Source of the DNA: Octopus vulgaris
Lineage: Eukaryota
Assembly: GCA_951406725.2 (NCBI GenBank)
Contig: OX597828.1
Coordinates: forward strand, 66,402,001-66,466,000
Length of the DNA stretch: 64,000 nt
Direction: 5' to 3'
Positions 4,010 through 59,053 of this stretch are shown here, in pieces; within the stretch, counting starts at the first letter, position 1, and the number at the start of each line of letters is the position of its first letter. The notes under the pieces were generated by a model. The model saw only the letters and a program-made list of their open reading frames with translations, had not been told where the DNA came from and did no database searches. The position numbers and the translations under genes are program-made.

Positions 4010-4650
4010 GTGGGAGTAAAACATACTTGCTATAGACTTCCATCTTTTACGAAACACACTTTGCGACAGACATTTCTTCTTCAGCCTTATTTTCCATTTC
4101 ATGAGGAAAACGAAAAAGTCGATTAGCTCAAGACTGGAGATAAACATGCCTGTTGCAATTCCTTTTACTCTCATCTTCCATACCACCTCTTTTGCCACAG
4201 CAAACTACCGAGAGAAAACAGGCTCGCTCCTCCCTATTCAGGGAGATCGGCAGAACTATCTTAATTACAGATTCGCTCGACATTTGTACTCTTCTTGAAT
4301 GCGACAGCAAGTGTTCGACATAAGCCTAGAGTTCAGTCACCTTGGGGCATTACACAATCGCATGCAGGACAGTTTCACTGTCCTGCTCGCATTTTGCACA
4401 AACTGGCAAAGGTGCACACCCATGTCTAAAGAGCTTATCTCGAACCGGTAAAGTTCCTCTGTAACATTGCCAGGCCAGGGACTTTTGGTAATTATCGATA
4501 GGACCCGGCCTGAAGGTTCTTTGGAACAGGTTGGCCAGGTGAACTTCGTCGAAGCCTAGGGTTTCTCCCAGGACATTGTTACACTTAAACTCTACTAACC
4601 CTCTATAGAAGAACGAGGAAGTACCCCTGCCACCGGCATTGCAGTCAGCT
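4010..4650 (-). pseudogene. L1/Tx1-clade LINE ORF2 C-terminal remnant (zf-RVT)
   Basis: AWQCYRGTLPVRDKLFRHG..CAKCEQDSETVLHAIV*CP..AKEVVWKMR. CxxC..ETxxH..C zinc finger with stops and frameshift. Confidence 0.75.
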
Positions 4651-4851
4651 GAACTATCTAGCTCTGTTTGTAATAAGAGCTGCAGAAAGAAATCTGCATA
4701 GACCAGACACATGAAATGTCACACTATCACTTTGTAACAGTCTTCACCACTAAATCAAATGTTTTCATGTCATCTGTTGAATAGTTTGTAAATCTCTTGC
4801 AAGACGAAATAGCCATTTCCTGCCACATAACATATAGACTATCTCCAGCAC

Positions 4852-7248: not shown

Positions 7249-8244
7249 TCAATATCTTGTTGCTCCTCCTTTGGCAGCAATGACAGCTGCTACGTGGGTC
7301 GGCATGCTGTCTATGAGTGCCTGCAGGTACTGTGCAGGGATGGCCCCCATGCAGCAAGAAGTGCCCCAAACAGCTCGTGTCGGTTCCTGTATTGTTGCAC
7401 ATTCAAATCCCTACCCAATCGACTCCAGAGGTTCTCAATAGGGTTCAGGTCAGGTGACTGGCCAGGCCAGTCCATGACCGTCACCCCATCATCCTTGAAG
7501 AAACCGGTTGTGAGCTTGGCTGTGTGGGAAGGCGCATTGTCCTGCTGGAGCAGTACTCCTCGCCACCAAAGAGGTATCCCGTACTATCTCAACGTACTTT
7601 GCTGCGTTGATGTTGCCTTCGACGGCATAGAGCCGCCCAACACCACTGTAGCTGAACGCCCCTCACACCATCAGACCACCCCCACCTTGCTTCATGGTGG
7701 GAGCAATGCAGTCTTTGTTGAAGCGCTCACCCCTGCGGCGACGCACATGGACAGGCTTGTCACTGACGAGACTGAATCGCGACTCGTCAGTGAACATCAC
7801 TGTCCGCCACTGCTGCACGGTCCATGTCTTGTGGGCACGGGCCCAGAGCAGCCGCCTCTTCCGGTTTTGGGCTGTAAGGAGCGGCTTACGGGTGGCCCTA
7901 CAGGATTTTAGACCAGCTTCCAGTAATCTGGTCTTGACAGTGGTTGTAGACAACTGCTTCCCTGTCATCTTTTGCATCTCCTCTGCCAGTTGCCGGCTCG
8001 TTACCCTTCGGTTGTACAGTGACTTTCGGATCAGCATCCGGTCCTCCCGCTGGGTCGTCAGCCTCTTCCGTCCCCTACCCTTTTTGTCAGCTGCTGATCC
8101 GGTTTCCTCATATTTCTTAAATAAGCACTGAATTGTGCACCTGGCTACACCAAGTTTTCTGGCTATTGCAACCTCCGACAGCTTCCCACGCCACGAGAGA
8201 GCCTTGTACCGTCTCTCCAAGGTCATGCGAGGTCTTGGGCCCAT
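7249..8244 (-). pseudogene. Tc1 transposase, inactivated (W->TGA and frameshifts)
   Basis: Paired HTH, GRGRKR, WRTVMFTDES, GGGGLMV*GAFS, QQDNAPSHTAK..WPGQSPDLNPIE with 34 residues between D and E. Ends ..AAKGGATRY*. Confidence 0.92.
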
Positions 8245-10165: not shown

Positions 10166-10206
10166 ATGTATATATATACACATACATAATTATATATATA
10201 TATATT

Positions 10207-10488
10207 ACGGAGATGTACTTGCATAGCAAGTGACCTGATTTGAGATCGTGTGCTGGAACGAAAACAACTGCAGCGTGGAAAGTGTTTATAAGCCATTTAA
10301 GAAACCCACAAAAACCGTTAGATTCACTTCAACATTCAAATTTAATTTGCCAAAATAATATTTTCGTTGCTTTGAGACCACAACCTACCTGTTCACTGAC
10401 AAAATTCCGTGCTGCAATGTTGAAGTGAATCTAATGGTTTTTGTGTGTTTCTTAAATGGCTTATAAACACCTTCCACGCTGCAATTGT

Positions 10489-10490
<2 letters not shown>
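10207..10490 (-). mobile_element. Hammerhead-bearing short repeat family HA, with ~72-bp inverted duplication, in (TA)n
   Basis: 10207-10416 matches 56356-56558. Inverted arms at ~10265-10336 and ~10416-10490. Confidence 0.75.
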
Positions 10491-18969: not shown

Positions 18970-19427
18970 CAATGCATCCCGGCGGTGCCCGGGTGTTATG
19001 ACCTACAAGTGCATTGTATTATTTGCTCCTTTCTTATGGGCAGAATCGGCACAGCTGATATATAGTTAATGGAATAATGGAAGTTATTTTTTGTTTAATA
19101 GTGAAGGACTGTTTCAGTCATTAGACTGCAGACATGCTCTATAGAATTTTAGTCATATGAAGTCTGGAACTTATTCTACAGGTGTCTTTTGCCAAGCCAC
19201 TAGGATATGGGAACATAAACACACCTAATACTAGTTGTCAGGTAAGTGATAGGAAACAAACACAGGCACAAAGACACACACATACATACTAGGGGCTTCT
19301 TTTAATTTAATTTCTGTCTTCCAAATCCACTCACAAGGCTTTTGGTTGGCCCAAGAGTATAGTGGAAAACACTTGGTCCAAAGAACCCAGACCCGTGTGG
19401 TTGGGCAGCAAACATCTTACCACACAT

Positions 19428-19842
19428 ATGTCTTTATTACCCACAAGGGGCCAAACATAGAGGGGACAAACAAGGACAGACAAATGGATTAAGTCGATTA
19501 CATCGACCCCAGTGCGTAACTGGTACTGAATTTATCGACCTCGGAAGGATGACTGGCAAAGTCGACCTCGGTGGGATTTGAAGTCAGACCGTAAAGACAG
19601 ACGAAATACCTATTTCTTTACTACCCACAAGGGGCTAAACATAGAGGGGACAAACAAGGACAGACAAACGGATTAATTCGATTACATCGACCCCAGTGCA
19701 TAAGTGGTACTTATTTAATCGACCCCGAAAGGATGAAGGGCAAAGTCGACCTTGGTGGAATTTGAACTCAGAATGTAACGGCAGACGAAATATGGCTACG
19801 CATTTCGCCCAGCGTGCTAACGTTTCTGCCAGGTCGCCACCT
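19428..19842 (-). mobile_element. SINE family A dimer nested in SINE family B
   Basis: Two tandem bodies, flanked by duplicated CTTACCACACA. Confidence 0.85.
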
Positions 19843-29059: not shown

Positions 29060-29570
29060 ACCCCACGAGCCCCGCCTCGCCACTGATACCTGAGTTACAT
29101 ACTGTGTCGCATTCACGAGGTTCCATCCACACGCAACATCCGTGCTACATTCTTCCATCGATCTTCAAACATTCTTCACAGTCAGGCATTTTCTCTCTAG
29201 CCCTATTTTCCTTTTAAGGTGAAAGGTGAAGTAATTCACCAATTCAGGGCCAGAGATGAAATTGCCTGACTCTAACCCTTTCAGCCTCGTCTTCCAAATT
29301 ACCTCTCTCGCAATTGCTACTACAATGAGAAAACAATTCTTACCTTCTTTCGAAAGGAAATCAGGCGAGTCAGTTTTTACAATAGACTCAGTCGACAGCT
29401 GTACTCTTCGTGCACTTGACAACAGTTGTTCAGCATAAACCCACACATCTGACACCCCCGAACTTTGAACAATAGCATGCGGGACGGTTTCCCTATCCCG
29501 CTCGCATCTTGGACAGGTCAAAAGGCCGTGGCCACCATGCCTTGTGAGCTTGTCCCAAACAGTAATTTGG
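29060..29570 (-). pseudogene. L1/Tx1-clade LINE ORF2 C-terminal remnant (zf-RVT)
   Basis: TCPRCERDRETVPHAIVQ..AREVIWKTRLKG..FHLKRKIGLERKCL, paralogous to 4010-4650. Confidence 0.75.
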
Positions 29571-30469
29571 GTATGAGAACCTAATTATTTCCCCTTTAAT
29601 TTTTATTTATTTTTTTAAACACCCTATACCGAAAGATTACCAAATCAAGAATCAATTCAGTAAATTATTTCAGGTGTATTCTGTACATTGGAATTCGATC
29701 CAGAGAGTTAAAAATCTATCTTTAGACTTACCTATATAAATTGGCCGGCAATAAAATGTAATTGAAACAAAAATGATTTTTTGTCAATTCTTTTAAAATG
29801 AGTTTTTTTTTGTTTTTATTTAGATTTCTGAGTTTTCATTGAAATCCACAAGGTGTGGGCTGCCCGTTATCTGTTTTCAACTTGACCTTTATAATTTCTT
29901 TTTTTTTTTCGGTAAAATATAGATACGGAAGGGAAATGGTTTTCCATCAATAACACTGGATACTAATGTCGAATCCAAGAGATAAATGGCACTAATACGG
30001 TACCTTTATTTTATAAGTACATACATTACGTCAGATAGTTTCATTTTATTTTCATTTTGTATAACTTAACTGAAAGATTAGATAATTTTCGCAAGTATAT
30101 TATGAACCTATTCTATAGAGCTTAGCTACAATGAAGTGAATTCAGTTTCAAAGATTATAATATGGACTCAACACAGCGGGAGCTTAATTTATTATTCAGC
30201 GGTATTTGTCATAACGATATTAACTTCACAGAGATTTTCAAGCATAAAGCCACATTTTGAAGAGGAAATGCATTGTACGAACTAAGAAACCGCAACCAAC
30301 TATTGTAAAGTATTTAGTTCGGTACTTTATCATTTTGTCTCTTTTAGATATCTGGTGTAAAGCTAGGTTTGTACTGGGTTTCGGGCTAAATTGGACACTT
30401 TGCATAAAAGAAAACAATTTCACATCCCAAAAATAAAAGTATTTAAAACAATATTAACTAGATTATGAC

Positions 30470-32289: not shown

Positions 32290-32885
32290 AGACATTTCTA
32301 CCAACGTAGTTAGGAGCTTCCTGTCGTTAATAAAGAAACATTTCCCTAAAGCCCATAAGTATTACAACTCTTCAACCCCCATAGCGTCAAGGTAAGCTAC
32401 TCCTGCTTAGACAACATTGCACGCATCAACAGACGTAAAAGCGCACCCACACAACCCCCAACCCCAACCTGAAACTTCTGAAACCCTACCACCTGCCCTC
32501 TTGGAGGATCCTGCCTCTCAAGGGCTATAGTATACAGAGCCACCTTTCACCATCAGATGGTATTACTAGGCACTACACGAGTATGACAGTAAATAATTTC
32601 AAGGGAAGACATTCTCATCACTTGCATTCATTTAGATCCAGGGACAGAGAGAGAACTTCACCTGCCTGTCACGCTTTCTCTGGAGACTTCGTGACCTTCG
32701 AGACGAAACACCTAGCATCAAGTGGACTATTATCGGCAGGGTGCCACCATATTCATCCGGCGCCGCTAATTGCCGGCTGTGCCTCCGCGAAAAACTACAT
32801 ATCATCTACCAACCCGCACTATCCATCAGCAAGAAATATGAGGTATCATATTGCTGTCACCCTTCTGATAAATTTCAAGCCACTA
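32290..32885 (+). pseudogene. Penelope-like element remnant (Naiad-like): thumb, Zn finger and GIY-YIG endonuclease
   Basis: STNVVRSFLSLIKKHFP..LFNPHSVKVSYSCLDNI; CPLGGSCLSRAIVYRAT; YTSMTVNNFKGRHSHHLHSFR; IKWTIIGRVPPYSSGAANCRLCLREKLHI. Several frameshifts. Confidence 0.82.
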
Positions 32886-36044: not shown

Positions 36045-36730
36045 GCCCAGGTGTATACAATCATGTATACAAGAGAAAGATGACGTCTATGGACCATTGA
36101 TAAGGAGTTTACAAATCCAGTACCCAAGATACACTTTCAGTTTCATACCCATTATCATCGGAACAACAGGATACATACCTATTTCTTTACTACCCACAAG
36201 GGGCTAAACACAGAGAGGACAAACAAAGACAGACAAATGGATTAAGTCGATTATATCGACCCCAGTGCGTAACTGGTACTTACTTAATCGACCCCGAAAG
36301 GATGAAAGGCAAAGTCGACCTAGTCGGAATTTGAACTCAGAACGTAAAGACAGACGAAATACCTATTTCTTTATTACCCACAAGGGGCTAAACATAGAGG
36401 GGACAAACATGGACAGACATAGGTATTAAGTCGATTATATCGACCCCAGTGCGTAACTGGTACTTAATTTATCGACCCCGAAAGGATGAAAGGCAAAGTC
36501 GACCTCGGCGGAATTTGAACTCGGAACGTAAAGACAGACGAAATACTGCTACGCATTTCGCCCGGCGTGCTAACGTTTCTCCCATTAGACATACCAACCC
36601 ATAGGAGCAAAGACTGGCTGAACTCGGAATATTGGAGAGAGAGTGCCAATCCTTAATTCATAAGTTATAGATGATCACGATATCTGGAACTATAAAAATT
36701 GCAAGACCTTCTTAAGATTCAAAGGATGAT
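36045..36730 (+). pseudogene. R4/Dong-type LINE 3' end (RLE region) split by a SINE
   Basis: EKDDVYGPLIRSLQIQYPRYTFSFIPIIIGTTGYIP [SINE] ..LAELG..SLIHKL*MITISGTIK..CKTFL. Confidence 0.7.
36175..36580 (-). mobile_element. SINE family A dimer
   Basis: Two ~182-bp bodies with the same junction. Flanking ACATACC duplicated (36173-79, 36589-95). Confidence 0.88.
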
Positions 36731-48330: not shown

Positions 48331-48964
48331 ATATATACATATATATGTAAATATATTGTTTATTTAGGGATGGGCATGGTTAAGACATTCACCTCCCAAC
48401 TACATGGCATCTTGGGAAAGTGTCTTGTATAACCTCAGGCTGACCAAACCTTGTGAGTGGATTTGATAGATGGAAACTGAAAGAAGCCCGTCATGTGTGT
48501 ATGAAATGAATGTCTAACTCATCAGAGAATACATTAGAAAACAGCTTGTGAAGTTGTTTGTAGCTAAAGCTGAAATTATTAGCTACTATAAAATATTTTC
48601 ACAAAATAGAATTCCTTGGAAACAGTTTTTATTCTGCATGGAAACAATAAGAACGTTCTTTCTATTCTCTCAATTCTTAATCTAGTAATTTTCTATGAAG
48701 AAAAGAATTTCCTCCAGACTGTAATTATTTCCATCTTTAATGAAATGTTGTATTTCATGAATGTTTATTAAGTCACAGATTATGTCATGCAAATATTTCT
48801 ATAAAAGAATGAATTAGTGTTATATGTGATTATCAATGACTAGAAATTTTTAGAACAAAAAGAAAAACATTAAATGTGAGTTCAATCCATCTTTTTCCAT
48901 ATAATTCTGAAATTTTGATTTCAAATTTCTCATCCTGCTTGAACTATTGAGAAATGTTTATTTC

Positions 48965-50410
48965 CCGAGGGTTGACAACGAATATAGTGAAGAATTCTGG
49001 GTAGAAGTAGGGATTCATCAAGGATCAGTCCTCAGCCCCTCCATCTTGTTCATCATAGTCCTCCAGGCAATAACAGAGGAATTCAAGACAGGATGCACCT
49101 GGGAGCTTCTCTATGCTGATGACCTTGCTCTAACAGCTGAGTCACTATCAGAACTAGAGGAAAAGTTCCAGGTGTAGAAGCAAGGTCTAGAATTTGAAGG
49201 GCTTTAGAGTCAGTCTAGCAAAAACCAAAGTCTTAATAAGTAGGAAGGCAGACAAATCACAAATCTCTTCAGGTAGATGGCCTGCTTGATCTGTAGGAAA
49301 GGTCTAGGTAGAAACTCTATAAGATGTACCCAGTGTAAGCTATGGACACACAAGAGGTGCTGCAATATCAAAGGAAGGTTAACTGGGAAGATAGCTTTTG
49401 TGTGTGGCAGATGCACAGGGGCAATAAACACCGAAGATGTTCAGAAAACAGATTCCATCACATGCCAGAGGGGAAAACTAGAAGTAGTTGATAGCTTCCG
49501 TTACCCAGGTTGCCAAGTCAGTAGTGGGGGGTGGATGCTCTGAGAGCATAGCTGCTAGAATAAGAATAACCTGGGCCAAGTTCAGAGAGCTCCTACCTCT
49601 GCTGGTAACAAAGTGCTTCTTGCTCAGAGTGAAAGGTAGACTGTATATGAAGCATGTGTGTGAACAGCTATGTTACATGGCAGTGAGACATAGGCTGTGA
49701 CTGCTGAGGACATGCGTAGGTTTGAAAGAAATAAAGCTAATATACTCTGTTGGATGTGTAATGTCAGTGTGCATACACGACAGAGTGTAAGCACCCTGAG
49801 AGAAAAGTTGGACATAAGAAACATCAAATGTGGTGTGCAGGAGAGACAACTGTGCTGGTATGGTCATGTGTTGCATATGGAAGAGGACAGCCACATGAAA
49901 AAGTATCACACCCTAACATTGGAGGGAACCTGTAGAAGAGGTAGACCCAGAAAGACATGGGATGAGGTGGTGAAGCATGACCATTGAACATTGGGGCTCA
50001 CAGAGGCAATGACAAGCAACCAAGATCTTTGGAGATATGCTGTGAGATTGTAGCTGTGGCCAATGCCAGTGTCGCATAACCGGTCCATTTAAAAGTACCC
50101 TTCAATTGTCAGGCAATATGCTGTGCTTGAGAAGACCTGTTGAGTCAAGTGAAATTATAGTCATGGCCAATGCCACCTGACTGGCACGTAAAAAGCACCA
50201 TTTGAGTGTGGCTGATGCCAGTGCCACCTGATTGGATCCCATGCTGGTGGCATGTAAAAATCACCCACTACACTCTTGGAGTGATTGACATTAGGAAGGG
50301 CATCCAGCTGTAGAAACCTTGCCAAATCAGATAGGAGACTGGTGCAGCCATCTGGCTTGCCAGTCCTCAGTGAAACTGTCCAAAGTGGATGTTAAGCGAT
50401 GATGATGATG
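48965..50410 (+). mobile_element. 5'-truncated RTE LINE (family R) with PHD-like finger inside RT
   Basis: VGIHQGSVLSP..LLYADDLAL; CLICRKGLGRNSIRCTQCKLWTHKRC..FVCGRC; LEVVDSFRY; WYGHVLHM..RGRPRKTWDEVV; 3' UTR and (GAT)n. Confidence 0.92.
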
Positions 50411-55290: not shown

Positions 55291-56355
55291 TTAAAATATA
55301 TATTTTCTTTGTAAACTTTTCTCAAAAGAGTATGTTAATAAAAATCTTTTAACAGGAGTATTGTCAAAAATGTATGAAATTAGTATATAGATTGGTGTTA
55401 GGTTTCACTTCATAAAAGTTTGACTTTTACTCTGCAAACTCAACTTCATCTGCAAAATTGGGGAAAATTTCTAAGTTATATTATTTGCATAGAATTTTTT
55501 TGGAGTGATTTTATGAAAGATCTATGAGTGGCTGTGTGGTAAGTAGCTTGCTTACTAACCACATGGTTCCAGGATCATTCCCACTGCGTGGCACCTTGGG
55601 CAAGTGTCTTCTACTATAGCCTCAGGCCGACCAAAGCCTTGTGAGGTGATTTGGTAGACGGAAACTGAAAGAAGCCCATCGTGTATATGTATATATGTAT
55701 GTGTCTGTCCTCCCAACATTGCTTGACAACCGATGCTGGTGTGCTTACATCCCCCGTAACTTAGCGGTTCGGCAAAAGAGACCGATAGAATAAGTACTAG
55801 GCTTGTAAAGAATAAGTCCTGGGGTCGATTTGCTCGACTAAAGGCGGTGCTCCAGCATGGCCACAGTCAAATGACTGAAGCAAGTAAAGGAGTAAAGTGG
55901 TTTGTGCTTAAACACAAGTCTATAGCTTATAAATGAAAATTCATTTAATTAAACTATACTTTATTGAAATTTTGAGCACTTATTTATGAAACTATATATA
56001 GAAATCTTGATGTTTATTGTTTTATCCTGGATATTAAGAGATGTCAATGTAAAGAGTTTGGATATAAAGAATTGTTTTGTTTTTGAGACTCCATTACGCT
56101 ATCCAGTTAATATCAACAGCTAAATTCTTAGGAATAAAAGTATGGTTGCTATGCTTCTATTCCAAGATGTTTCTTAATTTTTTCCCTAAGTTAAATAGCT
56201 ATTGTGTTTGTTGCTGACATTTTGTACCACAAACAATTAGTTGCTGTGTAGGAGACAGAAACTGATAGATGTGGAAAGTCCAGTGGACATTTAAAGCATT
56301 TTGTATAGTTGCTAAAGTAAAAGCTTTTGTTTTATAGCTTATACTGTTTTAATTA

Positions 56356-56558
56356 CGGAGATGTACTTGCATAGCAAGTGACTTGATCTGAGATTGTGTG
56401 CTGGAACGTAAACAATTGCAGCGTGGAAGGTGTTTATAAGCCATTTAAGAAACACACAAAACCGTTAGATTCACTTCAACATTTAAATTTAATTTGTCAA
56501 AATATTTTCGTCACTTTGAGACCGAGACCTGTTCACTGACAAAGCTTCGTGCTGCATT
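56356..56558 (-). mobile_element. Family HA monomer with 11-bp TSD
   Basis: Flanked by TGTTTTAATTA at 56345-55 and 56559-69. Confidence 0.8.
56493..56543 (-). ncRNA. Putative minimal type-I hammerhead ribozyme, G3-C8 core variant
   Basis: UUUGUCA-GUGAACA-G-GUCUC GGUCUCAAA GUGAC-GAAA-AUAU-UU-UGACAAA. 7-bp stem I, palindromic stem III. Confidence 0.6.
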
Positions 56559-59053
56559 TGTTTTAATTATCCTTTAATTAATCTGTCTTATTTAACATAC
56601 CTTACCAATTCTTCAATTTAAAAAAAGAGGAAAAAAGGGAGTTCCTGAGTGAATGTACCTCAATTGTCTTGGATTCCTTGATTTTTTTTCTAAAAACATA
56701 ACATGTACAATTCTAAATGGTTAATCGATTTCTATTCTTGCCTTTTTGTATTGTATCTTAAATCCCTTTATTGACTTTGCTTTTATTTTTTTCTTTCTTT
56801 CTTTTCTTTTTCCTTGTCTATAGAAATAATTTGTTTCGAAAATATTGATTTCAATGAATGAATGCTCCGATCTTGTTCAAACAGTTTACTGATTAGGAGC
56901 TGTTCTAAACATACACACATTTGCACTTCTTTGTAAATAAGTCCTTTTTAGTCATTTGTGACAGCAATGATATGGATAATTGATGAAAAGGGTTAAAAAA
57001 TATGTTGATTAAAAATGTTGAGAGTTAGCAAGAACAGGGTAGCCAGAGCAGAAAGCGAGGAAAGGAGAATTTTGAGCACAATCATGAGATCATAGTAAAT
57101 TCATCATTGTTTAATGTCTGCTTTCCATGGGTTGGACGTATGACTGAGGGCTGGCGAACCAGATGGCTGCACCAGGCTTCAATCTTGATCTGGCAGAGTT
57201 TCTACAGCTGGATGACCTTCCTAATGCCAACCACTCCGAGAGTGTAGTGGGTGCTTTTACGTGCCACCGGCATGGAGGCCAGATAGCTGCTCTGGCAACG
57301 ATCAGGCTTGGATGGTGCTCTTAATACCCTACTAGCACGGGGCTCAAGTGCCAGTAATGCAACGCTGGTAACGATCACGCTCGAATGGTGTCTTTTATGT
57401 GCCACTGGCATGGAAGCTGGTTAGCCACTCTGTCAATGATCACACTCGTATGGTGCTCTTTGCACCCCGCTAGCACGAACGCCAGTCATTGAATTTGATT
57501 TTGAATTATGAAACAAAATTCTTGACAAGTTGACCTACCATGGAAAAGAGATGATGAAATGATTCATGATGCAAAACATCTTTTCCAAAATCTAGATTAT
57601 TGATCACTATATTTATTCATATTTCTATAATGCATACGCTTCTCTTCTTAAATAGCCATGGCTATTTAAATATCTAAAGGGTTTTTTTTTTTTTTTGGAA
57701 AAAAAGATTAAAGGAATATTTCTGTGGTTTCTTTATTTTATTATGTTTTCTTCTCTTGTTATTAATTGCTTTTAACTTCTTTCAACTTATTTACTAACAT
57801 TTTTTCATCCTCCTCCTTTACCTTTCTAACCTCTCCTACTAACACCATTACCCTGTTGTCTTACTATACTTTTTTATATTTATTTATTTTAACAAAGCCA
57901 CCAGGCATGGCTGTGTGGTAAGAAGCTTGCCTCCCAGCCACATGGTTTCAAGTTCAGTCCCACTGTGTGGCACCTTGGGCAAATGTCTTCTACTTTAGCC
58001 TTGGGCTGACCAAAGCCTTGTGAGTGAATTTGGTATTCGGAAACTGATAGAAGCCCGTTGTATATGTGTGTGTGTGTGTGTGTGTGTGCGCGCGCATGTA
58101 TATAAATATATATACATTGCCAGATCAGACTGGGCCTGGTGCAGCCTCCATGGCTTACCAGACCCCGGTCGAACCGTCCAACCCATGCTAGCATGGAAAG
58201 TGGACGCTAAACGATGATGATATATATATAATCATCATCATCCGTTTTCCATGCTAGCATGGTTGGACGATCCAACCAGGGTCTGGGAAGCCAGGAGGCT
58301 GCACCAGGCTCCAGTCTGATCTGGCAATGTTTCTACGGCTGGATGCCCTTCCTAACACCAACCACTCCGTGAGTGTAGTGGGTGCCTTTTACGTGCCACT
58401 AGCACAGGGGATATATATATATTTATGTGTGTCTTTGTGTCTGTTTTGGTGTCCCCCTCCCTCCCATAACTTAGTGGTTTGGCTAAATAGACCGATAGAG
58501 TAAGTACCAGATTTAAAATATAAGTCCTGGGGCTGATTCATTTGACTAAAATTTTAAGGCAGTGCCCCAGCATGGCCACAGTCTAATGACTGAAAACAAG
58601 TCAAAGATAAAAGTGATATTTTGAAGCGTTACAGTACATATCCTACCTTTGCCTGACTCAACTGGAAAGGTAAACAGATTATCATTGAATAATTAGGATT
58701 GAGAAATAGACCCAAATATAAAAAGTACTTGGTCTTGCAATTTATGTGAGAATCAGTGAACACCTCTGTGGTTGTTTAACCTGCTAGAAATAGTTGTTAA
58801 ATTTCCCTTATTTACCCTACCATCTTCAAAAATAAGAAAAGACATGTTGGTTAATCCGGTTCTGGATATAGAAAATAATGGGGGCATGGCTTGAATGCCT
58901 TTAACCATTTTGTTACTATATTTATTTTGAGATGTTCTGTGTTTCTCTCAATTATTTTAGATATAACAAAGAATTTAGTAAAGTAACTTAGTTATCATTA
59001 AGCTAGTGTTAGGAACATTAATTGTGACTAAAGTTTAGTGGAAGATTTTAATG

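What the first reader, a model, noticed from the sequence alone, without database searches (positions are those of the whole stretch)
56345..56569. Clean ~200-bp monomer with G3-C8 hammerhead and 11-bp TSD
Seen: perfect TGTTTTAATTA duplication, no TIRs, no tRNA head, no tail repeat. 7-bp stem I, GUGAACA core and AAUAUU palindromic stem III. The size, TSD and type-I fold fit a non-LTR retrozyme or solo pLTR with a rare core swap (inference).
Basis: partly seen in the sequence, partly recalled or inferred. Interest (0 to 1): 0.7.

Follow-up and report, generated by a model that had tools for sequence, protein, structure and literature searches.

The report
Octopus Penelope repeat with flipped hammerhead
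This 205-base piece is a lone terminal repeat of a Penelope-type jumping gene, very abundant in octopus DNA, and it carries a predicted self-cutting hammerhead RNA whose central base pair is flipped (G3-C8), a form that the papers I could search show only as a laboratory mutant.

Summary
The element (56352-56556, minus strand) is a solo pseudo-LTR plus tail of a Penelope-like retroelement (PLE). Its last 31 codons are residues 1-31 of an Octopus protein (28/31 identical) whose long relatives carry a reverse transcriptase and a GIY-YIG endonuclease. A complete relative has the same layout (hammerhead, then ORF start). Thousands of contigs hold it, with two classes of 3' end 59 nt apart, the PLE tail signature. 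The hammerhead is a PLE-type minimal type I motif. G3-C8 is in both window copies, and no variant is listed there in four runs; 12 hammerheads of related PLEs have C3-G8 (4) or U3-A8 (8). I found no natural G3-C8 in print, but two key papers were not held. Corrections: this copy is not clean (U-U mismatch in stem II, fold mostly lost); the duplication is 7-11 bp, since its last bases are family sequence; no tandem join or empty site was seen, so 'retrozyme' is unsupported. Cleavage is untested. New variant of a known kind.

The parts
56352..56556 (-). Whole unit: solo pseudo-LTR plus tail of a Penelope-like element, about 205 bp
   Evidence: Copy 2 matches over this span at 88%; loose ends before 56351-56353, and behind 56543 a consensus that follows the family to about 56556-56557 and then turns AT-rich
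56345..56355 (+). Left copy of the target duplication; its last 3-5 bases are also the family's 3' end
56559..56569 (+). Right copy of the target duplication, after two extra T
56493..56543 (-). Minimal type I hammerhead motif (predicted): stem I 56543-56537 with 56499-56493; stem II 56528-56524 with 56514-56510; GAAA 56509-56506; palindrome 56506-56501; U17 at 56500; predicted cut between 56500 and 56499
56529..56536 (-). Core G3 U4 G5 A6 A7 C8 A9 plus bulged G
   Evidence: sequence; same in copy 2; no variant row at these places among 40 of 53 rows shown
56352..56444 (-). First 31 codons of the PLE ORF, starting 92 nt after G3
   Evidence: (28/31 identical to residues 1-31 of P0003)
56352..56410 (-). 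Optional 59-nt PLE tail between the two classes of 3' end (about codon 12 and codon 31)
   Evidence: 13 of 26 listed element pieces are clipped at this side: 9 at 56349-56357, 4 at 56410-56414, none elsewhere; the inverted fragment of copy 2 ends at the equivalent of 56411 (from table 8)
56417..56422 (-). 3' arm of a predicted helix that pairs with the element's first six bases (56556-56551)
   Evidence: (I2); prediction only
10204..10416 (-). Second family copy in a (TA)n tract; G3-C8 core intact, insertions after A9 and in stem III
10416..10489 (+). Inverted, 5'-truncated, tail-less fragment, head to head with copy 2 (typical PLE arrangement)
   Evidence: arrangement described in PMC8557442 and PMC3846280

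Best explanation
It is a solo terminal repeat (pseudo-LTR plus tail) of an octopus Penelope-like retrotransposon, holding a predicted minimal hammerhead with a family-wide G3-C8 core and the first 31 codons of the element's ORF, and it was likely inserted as a short product of the parent's own reverse transcriptase and endonuclease. Shown: the unit is hammerhead, then 5' UTR, then ORF start; it has one preferred 5' end and two 3' ends; it sits in AT-rich targets. Inferred: the PLE protein binds RNA near the ORF start and begins reverse transcription inside it (as shown in vitro for the Anolis PLE), at about codon 31 or codon 12. On a transcript that begins just upstream of the hammerhead this gives a 205- or 146-nt cDNA. 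The endonuclease nicks AT-rich DNA, the nicked end (ATTA) can pair with the RNA end, and a second nick 7-11 bp away makes the duplication. The template of this copy was uncut RNA, since 57 nt upstream of the cut site are present. The ribozyme is likely weak and dependent on a second copy (palindromic stem III) or on the PLE protein; G3-C8 would keep the 3:8 pair, and U at 17 would avoid a G3-C17 mispair. This particular copy is likely dead or impaired (stem II mismatch).
For: Peptide: only hit among 1.84 billion representatives is the N-terminus of an O. bimaculoides protein (E 7.8e-4); 28/31 identity to residues 1-31 of an O. sinensis model; the overlapping O. vulgaris protein P0004 finds 29 proteins of 680-1222 aa. 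[quoted passage not shown] Layout: L002 (46% identical to P0005 over nearly the whole ORF) has a C3-G8 hammerhead, then 73 nt on the ATG of its own ORF, repeated at the contig start. Covariation: a scan with 3 and 8 free found 9 hammerheads in 46 loci, all 9 on the ORF strand with Watson-Crick 3:8; with 3 more from a look at 23 flanks, 4 C3-G8 and 8 U3-A8, 11 of 12 with G10.1-C11.1, 6 of 12 with the bulged G. Two 3' end classes parallel Adineta Pen2a, whose pLTR holds 12 codons and 22 with the tail, with 8-10 bp duplications (PMC3846280), and PAc's two RT starts and ATT cut preference (PMC11167929). Common variants inside the hammerhead keep the fold: a wobble in stem I (22% in X5) and a loop II change (21%).
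Against: No full-length octopus element was obtained at DNA level, so the join of this pLTR to an intact ORF rests on gene models, one of which (P0003) is a chimera with a methyltransferase and one (P0002) lacks six of the 31 residues. The transcription start is not shown. The tail (59 nt) is longer than the 30-40 nt given in PMC8557442. No empty site was seen. 13 of 26 listed pieces carry the end-class count and were chosen by the tool as longest or at a joint, and I inferred record orientation. One of four common non-CpG variants in the 31 codons is a non-conservative change (S14F, 36% in X5), so coding constraint is not clear. 13 variant rows are hidden, so changes in the core cannot be excluded. 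The palindrome duplex alone is weak (-0.2 kcal/mol) and the cofold did not form it. Cleavage is untested, and 8 of 9 predicted retrozyme dimers failed to cleave in one study.
Confidence: 0.7

Rival explanations
1. Same origin, but the 205-nt unit now multiplies as an independent non-autonomous family (SINE-like), transcribed from its own master copies and moved in trans by the PLE protein.
For: Sharp 5' end and great excess of short copies; variants at 17-42% in X5 that differ between organisms (56436 and 56487 near zero in D), as expected for successive masters; pLTR sequences alone sufficed for mobilisation in trans in Adineta; O. vulgaris has many unclassified short families.
Against: The same patterns follow from successive autonomous subfamilies; no indel at 2% or more inside the 31 codons (table 4) and both window copies keep the frame open; 3 of 4 common non-CpG variants there are silent or conservative, a weak sign.
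Confidence: 0.2
2. Non-LTR retrozyme: a monomer of a tandem repeat, made from circular RNA released by two hammerhead cuts.
For: Size within the 150-450 bp range, low GC and long duplications fit (PMC7229834); such repeats are thought to derive from pLTRs.
Against: No end-to-start join among the best-supported joints, whose depth is at most 414 against about 2.5 million on the element in X3 (40 joints hidden); fixed ends rather than permuted ones; inverted head-to-head copy; no unusual self-pairing (z -0.20); bulged, minimal PLE-type motif; ORF start inside.
Confidence: 0.05
3. The element is a pLTR, but its G3-C8 hammerhead is an inactive or nearly inactive relic carried along because cleavage is not needed.
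For: In PAc, hammerhead mutants do not affect insertion in vitro and no reads end at the cut site; G8C is only partly rescued by C3G; full-length copies hold the uncut site.
Against: Both positions changed and the pair is kept, as in 12 of 12 relatives; family-majority stems are perfect; 5 of 16 pieces clipped on the 5' side stop at 56495-56497, 2-4 nt from the predicted cut (P about 0.02 for a window of 4 nt either side), though a stall in stem I explains this as well.
Confidence: 0.3

Closest known systems
Minimal hammerheads (min-HHR) in pLTRs of metazoan Penelope-like elements (Cervera and de la Pena 2014, PMC4209133)
   Same: Type I, unpaired base between 9 and 10.1, G10.1-C11.1, short palindromic stem III, U17 common, mostly dispersed single motifs, inverted pairs nearby.
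   Different: Core G3-C8: 0 of 56 motifs in their Fig. S3 (53 C3-G8, 2 U3-A8, 1 U3-G8 by my reading). Bulge is G, outside their consensus H. Stem I is longer (7 bp). No cephalopod in that figure.
Solo pLTRs and pLTR+tail of EN+ PLEs: Adineta Pen2a (PMC3846280) and Anolis PAc (PMC11167929)
   Same: About 200 bp, includes the ORF start, optional tail, inverted shorter copy at the 5' side, 8-10 bp duplications, AT-rich targets.
   Different: Tail of 59 nt; ORF starts 92 nt after position 3, whereas in PAc it starts at stem II; far higher copy number than in Adineta; natural G3-C8, which for PAc was only an engineered rescue mutant.
Nematis-type C-terminal EN+ PLEs (Arkhipova; rows in Fig. S2 of PMC8557442)
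   Same: Endonuclease region of the long relatives resembles the three Nematis rows by eye: CX2-5CxxC linker, CC between GIY and YIG, two later His.
   Different: Clade not tested by a tree with references; the octopus endonuclease itself was not seen; DKS in place of DKG and an RW motif, which the paper lists in similar form (DKT, RWK) for Hydra.
Natural U3-A8 hammerheads (Perreault 2011, PMC3088659; Cervera 2014)
   Same: Natural compensatory change of the 3:8 pair.
   Different: Two transitions there, two transversions here.
Non-LTR retrozymes (PMC7229834; bioRxiv 10.64898/2026.07.22.740005)
   Same: Size, type I hammerhead, PLE link.
   Different: No tandem join seen, fixed ends, minimal motif, ORF start inside.

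Membership tests
PLE pseudo-LTR | Overlaps the start of an RT + GIY-YIG ORF | tested here: met
   chain of protein overlaps, no full octopus DNA copy
PLE pseudo-LTR | Hammerhead upstream of the ORF start on the sense strand | tested here: met
   same layout in L002
PLE pseudo-LTR | Optional tail giving two 3' ends | tested here: met
   9 + 4 of 13 clipped pieces, and the inverted fragment; tail longer than published
PLE pseudo-LTR | Inverted 5'-truncated copy next to the 5' end | tested here: met
   copy 2; not present at the focal copy
PLE pseudo-LTR | Target duplication proven by an empty site | tested here: inconclusive
   X5 filled at both junctions, X3 filled at the right one, X14 without flank cover
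PLE pseudo-LTR | Promoter and transcription start in the repeat | not testable with these tools
   only contigs were available
Type I minimal hammerhead | Core N3 UGA N7 N8 A with paired 3:8, GAAA, U16.1, H17 | tested here: met
   G3-C8, U17; canonical C3-G8 letters not met
Type I minimal hammerhead | Stems I and II form | tested here: inconclusive
   met in prediction for the family-majority letters, not for this copy
Type I minimal hammerhead | Rfam hammerhead model match | tested here: inconclusive
   no match, but none either for 7 relative loci including four C3-G8 motifs
Type I minimal hammerhead | Self-cleavage after N17 | not testable with these tools
   needs an assay
Non-LTR retrozyme | Head-to-tail tandem units | tested here: not met
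   none in window; none among 15 best of 55 joints; rare arrays not excluded
Non-LTR retrozyme | Highly self-paired circular RNA | tested here: inconclusive
   linear fold z -0.20; circles cannot be seen in contigs
tRNA-derived SINE or MITE | tRNA head, simple-repeat tail, or terminal inverted repeats | tested here: not met
Nematis clade | Placement in an RT tree with reference PLEs | not tested
   tree has no named references; likeness by eye only

The most novel reading that the evidence does not exclude
First natural hammerhead with a G3-C8 core: an active ribozyme, co-adapted with U17, fixed in one of the abundant repeat families of octopus genomes and invisible to the usual CUGANGA searches; it cuts the element's RNA in vivo, and the copies that stop 2-4 nt from the cut site are the genomic trace of that. 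With a possible A3-U8 motif in locus L011, one PLE group would use all four Watson-Crick pairs at 3:8.
Probability: 0.3. Interest if true: 0.75.

Novelty: new variant of a known kind. Interest (0 to 1): 0.5.

Why it matters
The element class is known and a dead solo pLTR is ordinary. The core is not: the 3:8 pair is central to hammerhead catalysis, natural motifs in the papers read are C3-G8 or U3-A8, and G3-C8 appears there only as a partly rescued mutant. A natural, family-wide G3-C8 shows what context makes the swap tolerable (U17 and the long stem I are testable candidates) and means that descriptor searches miss whole hammerhead families. Thousands of copies with measurable ends also give a direct test of an open question, whether PLE hammerheads cut in vivo, and of internal reverse-transcription starts as the source of solo pLTRs.

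Tried and rejected
No genome is held for the window. A 23-base motif of the element found nothing in metagenome, viral or prokaryote contigs; the PLE alignment found nothing in viral contigs and 2 loci in bacterial MAG records, probably host DNA. Rfam gave no hammerhead match, uninformative. Expression: X17 is only guessed to be RNA, holds 1326 element contigs and bits of both flanks; not used as evidence. The decayed GIY-YIG-like stretch at window about 32300-32870 is not the parent: no DNA match to the element, no tblastn match from the parent-group proteins, no Pfam or database hit. No host exon found: 104 selected frames in 42-64 kb (of 283 in the window) gave one Pfam hit, an RT fragment. 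Atlas: P0002 only 0.75; P0004 0.97 to unnamed eukaryote clusters, DUF8422. PDB sequence search gave one RT hit, E 2e-5. MAFFT could not align the hammerheads by structure, so I parsed them by rule. The first tree timed out. In the FastTree tree (39 of 57 rows kept) the octopus protein's nearest rows have no DNA, so the swap cannot be dated; the label 'UG' for L006 there is my error, it is U3-A8. The sigma-70 scan does not apply to an animal. Depth ratios were not converted to copy numbers, as the tool warns. Earlier scan notes held nothing on this sequence.

Full report
Observation. The 11-base direct repeat is at 56345-56355 and 56559-56569 and nowhere else in the window. The hammerhead motif is on the minus strand: stem I 56543-56537 with 56499-56493, core GUGAACA 56536-56530, one extra G, stem II, GAAA, palindrome AAUAUU, U17 at 56500. 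A descriptor scan found this one locus; 40 shuffled windows gave a mean of 0.125 loci, 0.025 with a stem I of 7 or more. With positions 3 and 8 free, only this copy and a second family copy came up, both G3-C8. No tRNA gene and no terminal inverted repeat.

It is a family. A second copy lies at 10204-10416 (88% identical), in a (TA)n tract, followed head to head by an inverted fragment at 10416-10489. Public runs of four coded organisms hold the stretch. Laid on 55921-57000, runs X5 (organism A), X3 (B), X14 (D) and X17 (A, RNA guessed) gave 8254, 13250, 3171 and 1326 contigs, nearly all on the element, while the flanks are covered by single contigs. Loose ends put the family's 3' end at 56351-56353, inside the left repeat, and its 5' end near 56556-56557, with AT-rich, disagreeing sequence beyond both. 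So the duplication is 7-11 bp and overlaps the element end by about four bases, which fits priming by a short match (inference). X5 joins both flanks to the element and X3 joins the right flank; X14 does not cover the flanks. None of the 15 listed of 55 joints skips the element or joins its end to its start.

This copy is not clean. At 56513 and 56525, the two sides of one stem II pair, 86-97% of depth in each run has the letters that make G-C. As it stands, stem II has a predicted probability of 0.01 or less in the whole unit; with those two letters 0.64, and 0.98 in the first 80 nt. The copy differs from the majority at 7 or more of 205 places (four from table 3, three from the loose-end consensus), about 3.4%; at the rate used in PMC13282606 that is roughly 10 million years, a rough figure. 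No variant is listed at the core positions in the 40 of 53 rows shown; the common variants in the motif are a wobble in stem I and a loop II change.

The parent. An ATG 92 nt after G3 opens 31 codons to the element's end. Against 1.84 billion representatives this peptide had one hit, residues 1-26 of an Octopus bimaculoides protein (E 7.8e-4). That protein found an O. sinensis model whose first 31 residues match 28/31 and an O. vulgaris protein that runs on into RT-type motifs. [quoted passage not shown] The endonuclease region resembles the Nematis rows in Fig. S2 of PMC8557442; the clade was not tested. The O. sinensis model is a chimera with a methyltransferase, so it is an annotation of a decayed copy, not proof of an intact element.

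Relatives. The alignment found 46 metagenome loci. A scan with 3 and 8 free gave 9 hammerheads, all on the ORF strand behind the ORF match and all Watson-Crick at 3:8 (about 4e-6 if each had a chance of one in four, my arithmetic). A look at the 3' flanks of 23 loci, restricted to paired 3:8, added three. Of the 12, four are C3-G8 and eight U3-A8; none is G3-C8; six share the bulged G. Several close loci show no clear motif (L001, L010, L013, L017, L023, L032) or a degenerate one (L005, L026), and some have no flank. L002 is a whole unit: hammerhead, 73 nt, ATG of its own ORF, the same sequence as the contig start; its N-terminus aligns weakly with the octopus one (10/20, E 2e-4 for the pair). 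This fixes the reading of GUGAACA as a hammerhead core by position and by covariation.

PLE signatures. Of 26 element pieces listed, 13 are clipped on the 3' side: nine at 56349-56357, four at 56410-56414, none elsewhere; the inverted fragment of copy 2 ends at the equivalent of 56411, codon 12. This parallels Adineta Pen2a (12 codons in the pLTR, 22 with the tail) and the two internal RT starts of PAc that bound its tail. On the 5' side 16 pieces are clipped, five of them at 56495-56497, 2-4 nt from the predicted cut (P about 0.02 for a window of 4 nt either side). The pieces were chosen by the tool, two may be one locus, and I inferred record orientation, so this is a hint; a stall in stem I would give the same.

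Mechanism. Shown: anatomy, ends, abundance, targets. Inferred: internal initiation of reverse transcription near the ORF start on an uncut transcript that begins just upstream of the hammerhead, primed at a nick in AT-rich DNA, gives 205- or 146-nt inserts. I prefer direct by-products of the autonomous element (0.7 for the whole account; about 0.9 for 'solo pLTR plus tail') over an independent non-autonomous family (0.2) and a retrozyme (0.05). Whether the ribozyme cuts is open (0.3 that it is a relic). PAc's hammerhead needed protein, was not needed for insertion, and its C3G/G8C mutant was partly active. PMC3884650 reports, data not shown, that G3-C8 works better with G17 than with C17; the family's U17 would avoid that mispair, but U17 is also common in C3-G8 PLE motifs, so co-adaptation is only a hypothesis.

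Novelty. Min-HHRs in pLTRs are published. Natural 3:8 covariation is reported as U3-A8. Fig. S3 of PMC4209133 has 0 of 56 motifs with G3-C8. Searches for hammerhead with octopus, with C3-G8 and Penelope (14), G3C8, G3-C8, C3G, G8C (26), octopus with Penelope, SINE, ribozyme (49), U3-A8 and G3 C8 (93), Nematis (95), solo pLTR (107) and GUGANCA-type strings (114) showed no natural case and no description of this family in the listings and passages read. Not held: Lunse et al. 2017 on PLE hammerhead variants and a second survey whose id I recalled; either could report it. The family may be in repeat libraries as a SINE or Penelope entry; I could not see them. bioRxiv supplements were not seen.

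What I read. PMC4209133: parts 1-2 of 4 and supplement parts 1-2 of 3. PMC11167929: parts 1-2 of 4. PMC7229834: parts 2-3 of 6. bioRxiv 10.64898/2026.07.22.740005: parts 1-3 of 5. PMC13282606: parts 1-2 of 3. PMC3088659: passages and section 8. PMC8557442: passages and two supplement searches. PMC3846280, PMC3884650, PMC8495972, PMC6765202, PMC6155905: passages only. The hammerhead numbering and the names of RT motifs are from my own knowledge.

Verdict. A real, mostly ordinary solo pLTR of an octopus Penelope-like element, with one unusual and apparently unreported feature, a family-wide G3-C8 hammerhead core. New variant of a known kind; interest 0.5.

Noticed in passing
L011, + strand, about 2810-2850 (297 nt after the ORF match): Core AUGACUA with bulged G, 4-bp stem II, GAAA and palindrome ACAUGU: a possible A3-U8 hammerhead, the fourth Watson-Crick pair; stem I is only 1 bp.
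   Followed up: no
window 56307-56351, minus strand: The flank beyond the element's 3' end translates to 5 of 15 identities with the ORF's next residues, through a stop; 0.15% of window frames score as high. Seen after the fact; chance, or a target that resembles the RNA beyond the RT start. Real codons unknown.
   Followed up: partly
window 56551-56563 and 56410-56422: The element's 5' end and right junction are 92% complementary to the region at the tail boundary; the predicted helix spans exactly the tail-less unit.
   Followed up: partly
joints at 56490-56497 with 56543-56555: Several opposite-strand joints link the 3' arm of stem I to the 5' end: copies with an inverted 5' part, or a mapping effect of the stem I repeat.
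   Followed up: no
window about 32300-32870, + strand: Decayed endonuclease end of another Penelope-like element, recognised by eye from recalled motifs; no database support.
   Followed up: partly
window 7666-8244 (-), 48911-49174 (+), 4353-4718 (-), 29168-29584 (-): Tc3-type transposase, RT fragment and two weak zf-RVT matches.
   Followed up: no
window 19427-19792 and 36175-36546: Two 184-bp tandem dimers of one repeat; no hammerhead found there by the scans.
   Followed up: no
L047, L048: PLE-encoding contigs inside bacterial MAG records; probably animal host DNA.
   Followed up: no
P0003 (O. sinensis LOC115227545): Gene model joins the PLE ORF start to a methyltransferase domain; probably an annotation chimera, a real fusion not excluded.
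   Followed up: no
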